Shown here: positions 14,501 to 23,500 of the stretch, piece by piece
How positions within the stretch are numbered: position 1 is the first letter of the stretch
How the letters are laid out: every line of letters begins with the position of its first letter
Source: Rhynchobatus australiae
Taxonomy: Eukaryota
Direction of reading: 5' to 3'
NCBI GenBank assembly: GCA_034780895.1
Contig: JAUZTB010000076.1
Location: 39,724,514-39,788,513, forward strand
DNA length: 64,000 nucleotides
Program-made: the position numbers

Positions 14501-17500
14501 TTTGGGCATCAGTAGACAACTTTTAAAATAATGTAAGAAAATACCCATCAGATTCTGCCTAAGTTAACAAGCTCCTATATCCCAGTATTACAGACCTTTG
14601 CTAAACAACAAATTCTCAAAAGGTGAAATTTATAGATATGTGAATTTGTTCAAGTAAATTATTTTAGTACTTTGGCTCCTTAATTAGGTGTAAAGATTTC
14701 TGGTTGTCAAGTAAGACTTCATTATTATAATCAGGATTTAAAATGATTATCATTATTTGTGTGAGAAACTAAGTGGCTAAGTGTCCCAAATGAATGTTTT
14801 GGGAGTAGCTCATATTGGATCGCAGTGGCTCTTTAGACAAGACTTTAAACAAAGTAATTTGTCTCAGGTATGTGGGCCAGATGTTTCTATTTCTGTCCTC
14901 TTTTACTTAAAATTATTTTCATGGTGTCTGGTGAAGAAAGCAAAGGTTTTACGTACAATTTTGTGATATTAGGTGGTGTCAGNNNNNNNNNNCCTCCCAG
15001 CCAGATGAAGTGGAAACTAAGATTAATATTTGATTTTGCCATCTTCTAACATTTGCAGTATTCTTTTTAATTTTTACTTAACCTCTGTTTTGTTTGGTAA
15101 GAAACCAGTGCTGATAGATGGACACAGAAACATATAAAGATAGGTACAACTGTGGTGATCTTATTGAATGGTGGAAAATGTTTGAAGGTCTGAATATGAA
15201 CTCTGTCCAGTTCATAAGTTCCTGCTGGATGGTTCAAGGTGACAGTCTGTGCCAAGCTAAGACACAACTTTGAGTCTGAATGAGTTCTCACATTCAAGGT
15301 CCCTGTTGAAATGGGCAGTCTTCATTTAGTATATCCTGCCCTCTGTTCCCAGCTGACATTATGACTGGATAAATGTTATTTATTTTTAAATAATATCCCA
15401 ATTCATTTTTACTCTCCTAGGTTGCAAGTGTGAATATTTGGATTTGGTTCCAAAAGTCCTTGGCTCCCATCTTGGGACTGGTGTGTTTCCTAAGGTCACA
15501 GCTAAGCTCACTTAGAACCTGTTTGTCTGTGATCGTGCATAGTGATTGCTGGTCAACTAATTTACCATTTGCAGGAAGGTTTAATCTTGCCCTGACTTCA
15601 GGACATTTGAACTTCAGAGCATTATCTTTAATCTGTTCTTTTTAGAGTCATAGAGGAGTACAACACAGAAACAGGCCGTTCAGCCTAACTCGACAATGTC
15701 AACCAAGATGTCCATCTAAGCTCATCCTATTTGCCCCCATTTGGCCCAAATCCCTCTAAACCTTTTCTATCCGCACAGCTGTCCAAGTAGCTTTTAAATG
15801 TCATCATTGTGCCTGCCTCAACCACTTCCTCTGGAAGCTCGTTCCATACACGCACCACCCTCTGAGTGAAGAAGTTGCCCCTCATGCCCTTTTAAGACCC
15901 CTCTCTCCTTAAATCTTTCCCCTCTCACCTTTTTGGCAGCAACAGTGTTTCAGTCAGTTTCTGGCACCCATTCTGATGCCCCAGCTGAAGTTGGCTAACC
16001 CAGCTCCAACACTGAACTTGCGTCCGCCAACTTCAAATGTCTCGGTGCCATGCTGGGTCATGCTGCAATCCACTAAGCCACAAAGTAAGATACTGGCTGT
16101 AAAGAATAAGAATCAATAGCTGGTAGCAAGTTTACCTCACCATTCTCTCATTGGTTTCTTCATCGCTGTCCTGTGAATTAGCTGACACAACTCCAAAAGA
16201 GCCCAGGGGCTGTCTTGTGATGGGCGATGCTACCTGCTTTGAAGGAAATGCAACTGGAGAATCCCTGAGCATGGAAGAAAATGGCAGACATGTAGCTGTG
16301 CACGAAACAGAAAGATTCACAACCTCAACCATGTTCCTTTTCTCAAACACCATGCCTGAGCCACCAGTTTCAGATGAAGTTCCACCATCAACTAGAGGCT
16401 CAAGCTCACCATCGTTGTTACCAGCGGGCTGCTTTTCACCCCCAAACTCATCATTTTGCAGGGCAGAAGTGTCACAGTGCTGATCCTTGTTAACTGCAGT
16501 CTCCACCTTCTCTTCACCTCGGCACGGGAGCTCTTCATGACACAACCTGTCGTTCAAAACCACTTCACTGAAAGGAGCTGTGGTTGGTTCCAGAGTTTCT
16601 GTTGACTTAGATGATGCAGCCACTGTATATGTGGATAGCTTGCCACTACTGTCTGGCACAAGTTCTCCATTTGGCAGACTGTCATCAAACGAACCAGACT
16701 GGCCATTTTGGATCTCATCAGAAAGGGGAAGTAGTGAGTATTTAATCTCCTCTGTGGGATTGTTAGGGTCATATGTATTACTACTTCTATCTAATAACTC
16801 ACTGAAATTCACCTTCTTGCACATGAGCTCTTTAATGGCATGGTCTATGCTATCCTTCGGGCTCTTGGCATCAAATCCATCTGCATAATGGTGGCAATCA
16901 TCCATTTCATAGGATAGCCATTGATTTTCACTGGCCTCATTGGATTTTTTTTCAGCAGCCTTTGCGCAACCATCATTCTGCACTGGTTGTTCTAAGCTCT
17001 TTTGTAGGATCTCTTTATCTGCCGGGGAATCAAAAACATCATTGACATCTCTTTGAACTCCACCTGTTTCATCTTTGCCTCCCTCTGCCTTTTCTGAGGG
17101 AAGCCCACTGACCCAGCTTTTTTTATCCACTGTTTGATTCTGTGCTAAAGAGTCAGGAATTTCATCCAACTGATCAGTGCTGCTGATCTGCGGGGCTGAC
17201 ACAGATTTAGTCAATTTGCTGAGCTCTACCTCTTCCTCGTCTTCAAAAGGCAACGAACTGATTGATGTCAAAGAAGCTTGAATGCCGCTTGGCAGACTGG
17301 TGCCACTTTCAGTCTGACCGCCTTCGAGGGAGTTCCTATGCATTGCTTGTGCTCTGACTATCTGTTGCATGAGGTCCCGGTCATTAGATGAATCCAGAGG
17401 TTTGCGCATCTCAGGCCAAGCCACCGAACTGGGCTCACTCTCTATGCCAGAGTCAGATATAATTGAAAGAGACCGCTTCATAACCCCAGAAGTAATGGGA

Positions 17501-20500: not shown

Positions 20501-23500
20501 ATCGAGAAATGATTTGATTGAAACATTTAAGGTTCAGAATGGCGTTGACAGGATGGAGAGGATCTTTCCTCCTGTGGGAGAGCTTACAGGTTAAGTGGGT
20601 CACTGTTTAAAAATAAAGGGTCGTTCATTTAAGACAGAGATAAGGCAACATAGTTTTTCCTGCAGAGGGTCAAAAGTCTTTGGAACTCTTCTTCACAGTA
20701 TAGTGGAGGCAGAGTCTTTGAACACTCTTAAGACGGAGGTAGGTAAGAACCTAATAAGAAAGGGGATGATAGGTTAACATAGGTGGAAGAGAATATAGAG
20801 TTGAGGTTACAATTAGATCAGTCATGATATCAAAGGGAGTATTAGGCTTGGCCTGCTCCTAATTCATATGTTCATGCATAGAAAGAGACTGGAAAGTAGG
20901 CTGATGTCGTGGTTCTGAGTTCTGGCCCTGTCTGGTATCTATTGGATGTATGCTGCTGGGGTAGAGGCCTGTAGTACTTGGTCAAATGGGAGGGATCCAG
21001 TCCAGAGGAATGTTCCTGGGTTCCCTGCTCCTTCATTTTGGACCCCTCCCTAATTCGGGACTTCCATCTGAACCATCCAGACAAGCCTNNNNNNNNNNNN
21101 NNNNNNNNNNNNNNNNNNNNNNNNNNNNNNNNNNNNNNNNNNNNNNNNNNNNNNNNNNNNNNNNNNNNNNNNNNNNNNNNNNNNNNNNATGGACCCAGCA
21201 GAAACTTTCAAAGCACCAGAAAAAAAATCTCACTGAGAGATTGAAAATACTTCTGCATTTTCAGTGATATATAATATATTGTCTTAAACAAAAATGAACA
21301 TTTTTTGCTTTGGTTGGTGGAGACAGTATGTACTGCATAGTGTAAATATAAAGACGCAACTACATCAAATATACAAGTTAGTGCAGTCAGAGAGCAAGTG
21401 GTTCATTCATGGTCAAAGCTGATTTTCATGTACATTTTAAAACACTGCACATTTGTGAAATAATTAATTTTGTTTTAAAAGTAGTGCAATTCAATAACTA
21501 AATGAAAACGTACCTGATGTGAAATGATTCAAGGGGGGAAAATAAATTGGGGTGGGGGTAGGCTTGAGGGAAAGGAGGGATTCACATTTATCCTTTTCAG
21601 CTCATTTCCCTCCCCCAAACAAAAACATTAATACATTGTACAGTGAAACATTCAATTATGATTATGAACCGCTCCAAATTCAATGAAATGCACAAGGTCC
21701 AGTTGAGATATGTTAAAGCTGGTTCCACCCTGCAATAACCTTAAAACTGAAGCCAGATTGTACAGCTAGATTCAAACAATTATGCCTGGATAGTTTGCAT
21801 TAAGCATGAACCATAAAGCATGCTAGTCTATCTGAATCTGCTTTAGAGATGCAATCCAGAGGAAGTCAAAGTTTTTTTTTAAAATTAGATTTCAACAAAT
21901 AAAATTTAAAGAATCCTCATTAAAACTTAATTTAAGATCTAATTTTTCAAAACAAAAATGAACTGACAAAGGGCAGTTTCACATTTAAAAGAATGTTCCA
22001 GCATTAAGCAAAAGAAAGAGCAGCATAAGTAATGGTGATTGCAAATCAAAATATTCTTTTCTTCTTGTAATAGGAATCGGCATAATGACCACCCAAGCCT
22101 TGCGAATGTTGCCCAACGTAGCTGCCATCAGGACTCACTTCTGGGGAAGGCAGGAGGTAGGTAGATGCACGTTTCTGGCCAGTCACTGGAGACTTAAGGA
22201 AAACAAAAGCTCAATGTCAAATTCAGGCNNNNNNNNNNNNNNNNNNNNNNNNNNNNNNTACATTTTTTTTCATGAAAATCCAGAACATCAGATAGTTACT
22301 CCAACAAATGAACCATACGTAACAAAGTTTCAGATTTAACCTTTGATCACTTAACTCAGTAACACCAATGATGGTGTCAGTTCTGGAGAAAGACGAAAGA
22401 AAGGATGTTAATGGCGAAGAAGAGCAAACAACCTGTTTCTATTCTTGATCATTATCCAATCATTCTAATGAAATGGGCATCTCAGAACTTATTAAAATTA
22501 TCTGAAATCACATCATATTGGCAAAATTGGAGAGGTCCAACTATATTCCTAAACTCAAAGCACCAGAAGTTTGTGTTTTGTAGATATCCCTTGTTCCTCA
22601 GGACTCCTTCAAATTATAAGGGCAACCCACCTACAAAGATCTTCACTGGAAAACTGGGTCATCCTAGAGAGATTGCATTGCAGTCTTCCACTAATCAGAG
22701 CAATGACTGCAAGATTTCTGCACTACCTTATTGGACTCATGCAGATTTCCAAACTCTCAGGTTGGGAATTCCACCTACTGAAGCTGTATCAGTTCAATCT
22801 GGTAGAAGTATAGGGAGCTCATTAAAATGGGAGCAATCAGCTAATGGGGGAAAGGTAATGCTTTTTACTTGATTGAATGAAGTTGAATATTTAAAATGTT
22901 TTAAATAACTACATAATGTTTGTGGGGGTGCATGCAGTGTTTGTGTGTTCTTTTAACTTCTGCAAATATCAACATTTTTAATTGTTTAATTTCCTTTATA
23001 GTCCACTGTATGGTCCAGAGCACAGACAACAGGTGAACTCAAGGCGGAAGTTGTGCACCATAGATTTCACTGCACTTCACCTCCCAGTCATTTTATACAT
23101 GAACATGCAATGTTTAATCTGAACTTTGATTCTAAATTAACCAGGCTTACTTAACAGTAAACAGGGCATATTTGTGCACAGTTATAAAAACATCTACAGT
23201 CACTACAACAAGAGTATTTAATAGCTCTACTGTTATAGTCACTGTAGATTTAGATAAGCCATTTACAATTGTACTCTGGGTCTTTATTTTAAGAATTAAA
23301 TTTTTAGCCATTCTCTCAACCTNNNNNNNNNNTGATCTATACACAGAGTGATCAATTTCCAAGAGCCTTTTAATCTCCCTTCATTGTTGGTAACTACCCT
23401 TGTGCAGATATCTCAACTTATAGCAGAAGTGCTCAGATATCACCGTGGCAACACAGCACTTTGGTTCTCCCAAATGCAAACAACACAGCTTCAGCTAGTT

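What the first reader, a model, noticed from the sequence alone, without database searches (positions are those of the whole stretch)
14993..21088. Lone, intact FAM135B giant exon between the convergent JAK1 and RAVER2 3' ends
Seen: a 2065-bp fully open exon (16136-18200, -) with intact AG/GT sites and conserved FAM135B blocks. I found neither the upstream FAM135B exons nor the downstream lipase-like exons (FYQAKE..., HLVVCVHGLDG, FIGHSLG) in the readable sequence. The block is bounded by N gaps (14983-14992 and the round 100-N gap 21089-21188). Known: JAK1 and RAVER2 are direct tail-to-tail neighbours in mammals, while FAM135B lies near COL22A1/KHDRBS3 on another chromosome. Inference: an undamaged 687-codon exon suggests the genuine FAM135B exon in a mis-scaffolded contig. 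The more exciting alternative is a recent duplication or transduction that put a spliceable exon directly downstream of RAVER2 on the same strand.
Basis: partly seen in the sequence, partly recalled or inferred. Interest (0 to 1): 0.65.

Follow-up and report, generated by a model that had tools for sequence, protein, structure and literature searches.

The report
FAM135B exon contig, probably misplaced
A real, intact FAM135B exon sits alone between JAK1 and RAVER2 in a very fragmented ray assembly, most likely because a small contig was put in the wrong place.

Summary
A 2065-base exon (16136-18200, minus strand) has a good acceptor and donor and 687 open codons. It is the central giant exon of FAM135B, 93% identical to residues 420-1107 of the Pristis pectinata protein. 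No other FAM135B exon is in the readable 64 kb. JAK1 ends at 6490 (+) and RAVER2 ends at 22046 (-), so the exon lies in their tail-to-tail interval. It is a single 6096-base piece bounded by a 10-N and a 100-N run.

The juxtaposition is probably not biological.
- FAM135B and RAVER2 lie on sequences of different length in 16 of 16 species where both were listed, including 9 of 9 sharks and rays and the closest relative.
- The exon has changed no faster than the bona fide Pristis gene (14 versus 15 lineage-specific changes, no indels). It is therefore the working exon or a very recent copy.
- The window is cut into 24 pieces, and both junctions are hidden in N.

Best reading: the genuine FAM135B exon on a mis-scaffolded contig (about 0.8). 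A real recent duplication (about 0.12) cannot be excluded without reads. Even then, splicing from RAVER2's last intron would be out of frame, with a stop after 35 codons. Low interest.

The parts
2409..2585 (+). JAK1 kinase (JH1) exon with the catalytic loop and DFG
   Evidence: Best PDB matches are JAK1 (97.6 bits) ahead of JAK2 (86.9) and TYK2. Pfam PK_Tyr_Ser-Thr E=6e-20, profile positions 114-170.
6389..6490 (+). JAK1 last coding exon and stop codon (stop 6488-6490)
   Evidence: Aligns to the last 31 residues of JAK1 in PDB 7t6f_A, E=3e-9. Matches the end of the Pfam kinase profile, positions 233-257 of 258. The frame ends at 6487.
14983..14992 (.). 10-N run, left boundary of the block
   Evidence: Not filled or looked up.
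14993..16135 (-). Intron sequence downstream (3') of the FAM135B exon
   Evidence: No Pfam, Rfam or tandem-repeat match. The only repeat is 87 bases at 15795-15881, 73.6% identical to 40181-40265.
16136..18200 (-). FAM135B central giant exon: 2065 bases, 687 whole codons, phase 1 in and phase 2 out
   Evidence: 640 of 687 residues are identical to Pristis pectinata FAM135B residues 420-1107, with no indels.
18201..21088 (-). Intron sequence upstream (5') of the FAM135B exon, with a polypyrimidine tract and AG at its end
   Evidence: No protein-family, RNA-family or repeat match other than one 47-base tandem array at 18931-18977.
21089..21188 (.). 100-N run, right boundary of the block
   Evidence: One of six runs of exactly 100 N in the window. 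Not filled or looked up.
21189..22045 (-). Start of the RAVER2 3' UTR, running into the 100-N run
   Evidence: No AATAAA or ATTAAA on the minus strand in these 857 bases.
22046..22198 (-). RAVER2 last coding exon and stop codon
   Evidence: tblastn: Pristis RAVER2 residues 951-1000, 98% identical. Sequence read. The acceptor is in phase 0.
27021..27113 (-). RAVER2 penultimate coding exon; donor AAG|gtaaac, phase 0
33653..63190 (-). Eight further RAVER2 exons: 33653-33769, 45874-45933, 48903-48992, 50873-51100, 51493-51606, 53448-53726, 55091-55201, 63086-63190
   Evidence: tblastn with Pristis RAVER2 P0129, collinear, 77-100% identity.

Best explanation
The block 14993-21088 is the genuine single-copy giant exon of FAM135B with about 1.1 kb and 2.9 kb of its own introns. 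It was assembled as one 6.1-kb contig and then placed wrongly by the scaffolder in the short tail-to-tail interval between JAK1 and RAVER2.

Shown: the exon is real, is FAM135B, is under normal constraint, is alone in the window, and is cut off from both neighbours by N. FAM135B and RAVER2 also lie on different chromosomes in every other species that could be compared.

Inferred: that the join is an error. A simple route needs only one false link. The block sits at the end of a run of pieces joined by short or sized gaps (1528-21088). A false link at the 10-N run would attach it behind the JAK1 3' flank. The later join marked by 100 N would then sandwich it against RAVER2.
For: 1. Synteny. Using the contig length given for each protein, FAM135B and RAVER2 lie on sequences of different length in 9 of 9 sharks and rays listed in both searches with a length:
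- Pristis pectinata 102,490,209 vs 144,684,616
- Hemitrygon akajei 224,763,315 vs 116,352,110
- Rhinoraja longicauda 93,678,582 vs 60,992,755
- Narcine bancroftii 376,162,909 vs 257,710,454
- Heptranchias perlo 142,684,034 vs 89,404,954
- Heterodontus francisci 208,972,130 vs 137,194,213
- Cetorhinus maximus 179,982,240 vs 105,773,345
- Mustelus asterias 141,841,074 vs 140,552,254
- Scyliorhinus canicula 191,882,600 vs 244,324,502
The same holds in 7 of 7 bony vertebrates I compared: Acipenser ruthenus, Chelonoidis abingdonii, Paroedura picta, Eublepharis macularius, Conger conger, Scleropages formosus, Arapaima gigas.

2. RAVER2 and JAK1 are listed next to each other (...CACHD1, RAVER2, JAK1, AK4...) in the LEPR region of human and most vertebrates studied (PMC4422726, passages read).

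3. Constraint. Of 47 differences from Pristis, 14 arose on the window's lineage, 15 on the Pristis lineage and 18 could not be assigned. The window differs at 1 of 209 columns invariant in the other 13 species; Pristis differs at 3 of 211 in the reciprocal count. There are no indels and no stops.

4. Assembly state. There are 23 N runs and 24 pieces in 64 kb, and the median inner piece is 2132 bases. The block is one piece, and neither junction is readable.

5. The RAVER2 3' UTR has no poly(A) signal in the 857 bases before the 100-N run, so the sequence is already broken inside that gene's end.

6. No other FAM135B exon is in the window, and there is no room for a gene. The JAK1 stop is 8.5 kb to one side and the RAVER2 stop under 1 kb to the other.
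Against: - Nothing here shows the join to be false. No reads, mate pairs, Hi-C or other scaffolds of this genome were available.
- Local scaffolding is otherwise good. The 6 of 6 pieces that carry RAVER2 exons are in the right order and orientation.
- The flanks of two 100-N runs overlap exactly, by 24 bases at 34068-34167 and 10 bases at 50018-50117. This supports those two joins.
- The left boundary is only a 10-N run. In many pipelines (recalled, not tested) this marks pieces thought to lie close together.
- A short-read assembler would collapse two near-identical copies into one contig, so a real recent duplication would look the same.
- Contig length is only a proxy for chromosome identity, and JAK1's own chromosome could not be looked up.
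Confidence: 0.8

Rival explanations
1. A real and very recent DNA-level duplication, between chromosomes, copied at least 6.1 kb of the FAM135B locus (the exon plus intron flanks) into the JAK1-RAVER2 interval. It lies downstream of RAVER2 on the same strand. It could be used as an alternative 3' exon of RAVER2 transcripts.
For: - Splice sites and intron flanks are retained, so it is not a retrocopy.
- It is on the same strand as RAVER2.
- RAVER2 has no poly(A) signal before the gap.
- Local scaffolding is otherwise correct for 6 of 6 checkable pieces.
- The 10-N run on the left may mean close linkage (recalled convention).
- An unchanged rate is compatible with a copy that is very young.
Against: - No second copy or partial model was found. 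The search for proteins of 377-1203 residues gave nothing closer than 66% identity over 58% of the exon. This species appears to have no annotated proteins in the database, so that is weak evidence.
- The arrangement is absent from the closest relative and from 16 of 16 species compared.
- Both junctions fall exactly in N.
- No target-site duplication, poly(A) tail or adjacent LINE can be seen.
- A coding fusion is excluded from RAVER2's last intron: phase 0 against phase 1 gives a stop after 35 codons.
Confidence: 0.12
2. An old stray copy of the exon, either a decaying pseudo-exon or one long since recruited by RAVER2, that has sat here since before the split from the Pristis lineage.
For: Only its position.
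Against: - The window's lineage shows no excess of changes: 14 against 15. It changed only 1 of 209 otherwise invariant columns and has no indel or stop in 687 codons.
- The Pristis RAVER2 model has no similarity to the exon; the best blastp hit has E=0.46.
- In Pristis the two genes lie on different chromosomes.
Confidence: 0.02
3. The piece comes from another organism's DNA (contamination), or the whole FAM135B gene has moved here.
For: None beyond the odd position.
Against: - Divergence from Pristis is of the same order for the exon (93%) and for the neighbouring RAVER2 exons (77-100%, most at or above 95%).
- The ranking of species is the same for both: Pristis, then Hemitrygon, then skates and sharks.
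- No other FAM135B exon is in 64 kb.
- JAK1 and RAVER2 coding exons lie 8.5 kb and under 1 kb away.
Confidence: 0.02

Closest known systems
FAM135B of Pristis pectinata (P0002, NCBI 'protein FAM135B-like', 1420 aa) and 12 other shark and ray FAM135B proteins
   Same: The window's exon aligns end to end with residues 420-1107. 640 of 687 residues are identical, with no indels. The exon limits agree with the protein (..SKA|NHKF.. and ..ERMV|S..). 209 columns are invariant across 13 species.
   Different: Those proteins also carry the N-terminal PF12394 and C-terminal PF05057/PF02089 domains. None of the exons encoding those domains is in the window. In those species the gene lies on a different chromosome from RAVER2.
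Misplaced small contig (chimeric join) in a short-read scaffold assembly
   Same: A single short piece bounded by N on both sides, in a scaffold of 24 pieces. It carries sequence that belongs elsewhere by conserved synteny.
   Different: The error itself is not demonstrated. The neighbouring joins that can be checked are correct.
Exon-carrying segmental duplication, or exon shuffling at the DNA level
   Same: An exon with intact splice sites and intron flanks lies in a foreign locus on the host gene's strand.
   Different: No second copy, junction, target-site duplication or mobile-element partner is visible. The phases do not match RAVER2's last intron.

Membership tests
FAM135B (vertebrate FAM135 family, member B) | Sequence homology of the long central exon to FAM135B | tested here: met
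   560 proteins with E<=0.001. The top 13 are shark and ray FAM135B at 59-93% identity over 100% of the exon. tblastn maps it to residues 420-1107.
FAM135B (vertebrate FAM135 family, member B) | N-terminal DUF3657 domain (PF12394) encoded upstream | tested here: not met
   Not present anywhere in the readable window; tblastn with three full-length proteins gave no hit with E<1. The window therefore holds an exon of the gene, not the gene.
FAM135B (vertebrate FAM135 family, member B) | C-terminal lipase-like DUF676 domain (PF05057) encoded downstream | tested here: not met
   Not present in the readable window. Pfam finds nothing in the exon itself, as expected for the central region.
FAM135B (vertebrate FAM135 family, member B) | Evolution under the same constraint as the orthologue | tested here: met
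   14 window-derived against 15 Pristis-derived changes. 1 of 209 invariant columns changed. No indels or stops.
JAK1 | Kinase (JH1) exons closest to JAK1 among the JAKs, ending in the JAK1 C-terminus | tested here: met
   97.6 bits to JAK1 against 86.9 to JAK2 and about 74 to TYK2. The last exon aligns to the JAK1 C-terminus, E=3e-9.
RAVER2 (ribonucleoprotein PTB-binding 2) | Collinear exons closest to RAVER2 rather than RAVER1 | tested here: met
   10 exons at 77-100% identity to Pristis RAVER2. Pristis RAVER1 gives only the last exon at 69% and one 38-residue hit at 45%. The RRM exons lie outside the window.
Mis-scaffolded contig | Piece separated from both neighbours by gaps, and in conflict with conserved gene order | tested here: met
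Mis-scaffolded contig | No reads or links span the joins; the true locus has a matching hole | not testable with these tools
   No reads and no other part of this assembly were available.
Segmental duplication / inserted exon copy | A second copy in the same genome and readable junctions | not testable with these tools
   The junctions are N. The protein database holds no model from this species.

The most novel reading that the evidence does not exclude
A very recent duplication between chromosomes really did drop a complete, spliceable 2-kb FAM135B exon about 1 kb downstream of the RAVER2 stop codon on the same strand. This would be an exon caught at the first step of exon shuffling. It would be usable by RAVER2 only as a frame-shifted alternative 3' end.
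Probability: 0.12. Interest if true: 0.4.

Novelty: not a real feature. Interest (0 to 1): 0.1.

Why it matters
If the placement is an artefact, the value is practical. This scaffold should be broken at 14983-14992 and/or 21089-21188, and the FAM135B locus of this assembly probably lacks its largest exon. Any gene model or synteny claim built on this interval would be wrong. If the placement were real, it would be a neat young example of an exon moved with its splice sites into another gene's 3' end. The frame mismatch with RAVER2 limits what it could do.

Tried and rejected
**Searches and tests that gave nothing**
- Pfam on the exon and on 17 other open frames in and around the block: nothing relevant.
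- Rfam (E<=0.1) and tandem repeats on 11295-23322: no RNA family and one trivial 47-base array.
- Self-comparison of 13000-23000 against the window, looking for a repeat copy that would bridge either gap: only one 87-base match, at 15795-15881. No test of continuity was possible.
- Suffix-prefix overlaps between the block and its neighbours, and between the two neighbours with the block removed: none.
- Search for a shorter or partial protein containing this exon, to find a second copy or a model from this species: nothing closer than 66% identity.

**Readings rejected**
- Retrocopy: introns and splice sites are present.
- LINE 3' transduction: the only LINE-like fragment is 87 bases, old (73.6% identity), and lies 3' of the exon.

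**Steps that failed or could not be done**
I did not resend it.
- JAK1's chromosome in other species could not be looked up.
- Genome contigs holds only bacteria and archaea and was not used.
- The supplementary gene-location table of PMC4422726 (S9) could not be seen.
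Full report
**What is there**

On the minus strand a frame is open from 18258 to 16132, 708 codons. The next longest N-free frame among the 6424 in the window is 171 codons. The chance of 708 open codons at this composition is about 5e-20.

The exon starts after a polypyrimidine tract and AG (…tttgtttaccttcacag|CAAACC, 18201/18200). 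It ends at GGTGAG|gtaaac (16136/16135). A second GT at 16140 is excluded, because the Pristis protein reads …ERMV-S…, which needs the AG before the intron. The exon is therefore 16136-18200, 2065 bases.

**What it is**

Pfam finds no domain in the exon. The search of longer proteins gave 560 hits with E<=0.001. It was headed by 13 shark and ray FAM135B proteins that cover 100% of the exon:
- Pristis pectinata, 93%
- Hemitrygon akajei, 82%
- skates and the electric ray, 72-76%
- sharks, 59-68%

All of these carry the N-terminal PF12394 and C-terminal PF05057 domains. The exon corresponds to residues 420-1107 of the 1420-residue Pristis protein. The window therefore comes from a ray close to sawfishes. 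I did not try to name the assembly.

**Is it alone?**

tblastn with three full-length FAM135B proteins found nothing else in the window with E below 1. The 4775 masked or gap bases could hide a small exon. They could not hide a gene of about 20 exons.

**The neighbours**

Exons were searched one at a time.

- JAK1, + strand. The frame at 2409-2585 is a tyrosine-kinase exon that scores best to JAK1: 97.6 bits, against 86.9 for JAK2. The frame at 6389-6487 aligns to the last 31 residues of JAK1 and ends in a stop at 6488-6490.
- RAVER2, - strand. A 122-codon frame at 53400-53765 found one representative, later named RAVER2 of Hemitrygon akajei. With the Pristis RAVER2 protein, ten exons map collinearly from 63190 down to 22049 at 77-100% identity, with the stop at 22046-22048. 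RAVER1 gives only two weak hits.

JAK1 and RAVER2 thus converge, stop to stop, over 15.6 kb. The block and its two N runs take up 6.2 kb of that. RAVER2 and JAK1 are listed as adjacent genes in the LEPR region of human and most vertebrates studied (PMC4422726, passages read; its location table is a supplement that I could not see). That FAM135B lies beside COL22A1 and KHDRBS3 in human is my recollection. One search shows only that papers mention the three together.

**Does FAM135B belong here?**

For each protein the database gives the length of the contig that carries it. FAM135B and RAVER2 sit on contigs of different length in 9 of 9 sharks and rays listed in both searches with a length. This includes Pristis pectinata (102,490,209 against 144,684,616). 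The same is true in 7 of 7 bony vertebrates I compared. Species present in only one list, or without a length, were left out:
- FAM135B only: Leucoraja, Stegostoma, Chiloscyllium plagiosum.
- RAVER2 only: Hypanus, Mobula, Rhincodon, Amblyraja, Hemiscyllium, S. torazame, C. punctatum.
- No lengths given: Pristiophorus.

The Pristis RAVER2 model has no similarity to the exon (best E=0.46). The arrangement in the window is therefore not ancestral and is not shared with the nearest relative.

**Is it a working exon or a stray copy?**

I aligned the exon with the 13 shark and ray proteins. It differs from Pristis at 47 of 687 positions.
- Polarised by the other 12 species, 14 changes arose on the window's lineage, 15 on the Pristis lineage, and 18 could not be assigned.
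- The window differs at 1 of 209 columns invariant in all 13 others. Pristis differs at 3 of 211 in the reciprocal count.
- There are no indels.

A copy freed from selection since anywhere near the split would show an excess of changes and damage. This is either the functional exon itself or a copy too young to have diverged.

**State of the assembly**

The window has 23 N runs: six of exactly 100 N, three of 10 N, and the rest of mixed sizes. That makes 24 pieces. The median inner piece is 2132 bases, and the block, at 6096 bases, is the largest.

Neither junction of the block can be read. No repeat bridges them and no end overlaps exist.

In fairness, the local scaffolding is otherwise good:
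- The 6 of 6 pieces that carry RAVER2 exons are in correct order and orientation.
- The readable ends on either side of two 100-N runs overlap exactly, by 24 bases at 34068-34167 and 10 bases at 50018-50117. This supports those two joins.

The RAVER2 3' UTR has no poly(A) signal in the 857 bases before the 100-N run, so the sequence is broken inside the end of that gene. The block's flanks hold no protein-family, RNA-family or notable repeat match.

**Verdict**

The best reading, at about 0.8, is that the genuine FAM135B exon, assembled as a small contig, was placed in the wrong scaffold. The block lies at the end of a run of pieces joined by short or sized gaps (1528-21088). One false link at the 10-N run would therefore be enough, and the later 100-N join would sandwich it against RAVER2. 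That route is inference.

A real, very recent duplication (about 0.12) would look identical in a short-read assembly, because the two copies would collapse into one contig. It can be settled only with reads. Even if real, it could not extend the RAVER2 protein in frame. RAVER2's last intron is phase 0 (…ATC AAG|gtaaac) and the exon needs phase 1, so a fusion would stop after 35 codons.

An old stray copy, contamination, and a relocated whole gene are each disfavoured.

**Left open**

- No protein from this species appears in the database, so the test 'does the main locus lack this exon' could not be made.
- No part of the window was taken for human.
- Unnamed database rows that might come from people's samples were neither fetched nor used.

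Noticed in passing
window 34044-34067 and 34168-34191: The 24 bases before the 100-N run at 34068-34167 are repeated exactly just after it. The two pieces therefore overlap, and the 100 N is a placeholder rather than missing sequence. A 10-base exact overlap flanks the 100-N run at 50018-50117. Both fit a k-mer graph assembler whose abutting contigs were joined with fixed 100-N spacers (the assembler reading is recalled convention).
   Followed up: partly
window 2586-6388: About 76 residues of the JAK1 kinase domain, between ...SPVFW and VYYHMKKCW..., have no exon in the readable sequence. They probably lie under the 914-N run at 5096-6009 or the 15-N run at 4243-4257. Not filled or looked up.
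   Followed up: no
window 21189-22045 (-): The RAVER2 3' UTR has no AATAAA or ATTAAA in the 857 bases between the stop codon and the 100-N run. The true 3' end of the gene is missing, or lies beyond the gap.
   Followed up: partly
window 40110-42012 (-) and 59907-60480 (-): Degenerate LINE-like open frames lie inside RAVER2 introns. The Pfam hits are weak and below threshold: Exo_endo_phos E=0.034 at 41606-41884 and RVT_1 E=0.045 at 60241-60480. An 87-base fragment related to 40181-40265 lies in the FAM135B intron at 15795-15881.
   Followed up: partly
P0129 (Pristis pectinata RAVER2 model), residues about 64-246: This 1000-residue model carries about 185 extra N-terminal residues that the Hemitrygon protein (795 aa) lacks. 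They are unrelated to FAM135B. It looks like an annotation difference, and it lies outside the window.
   Followed up: no
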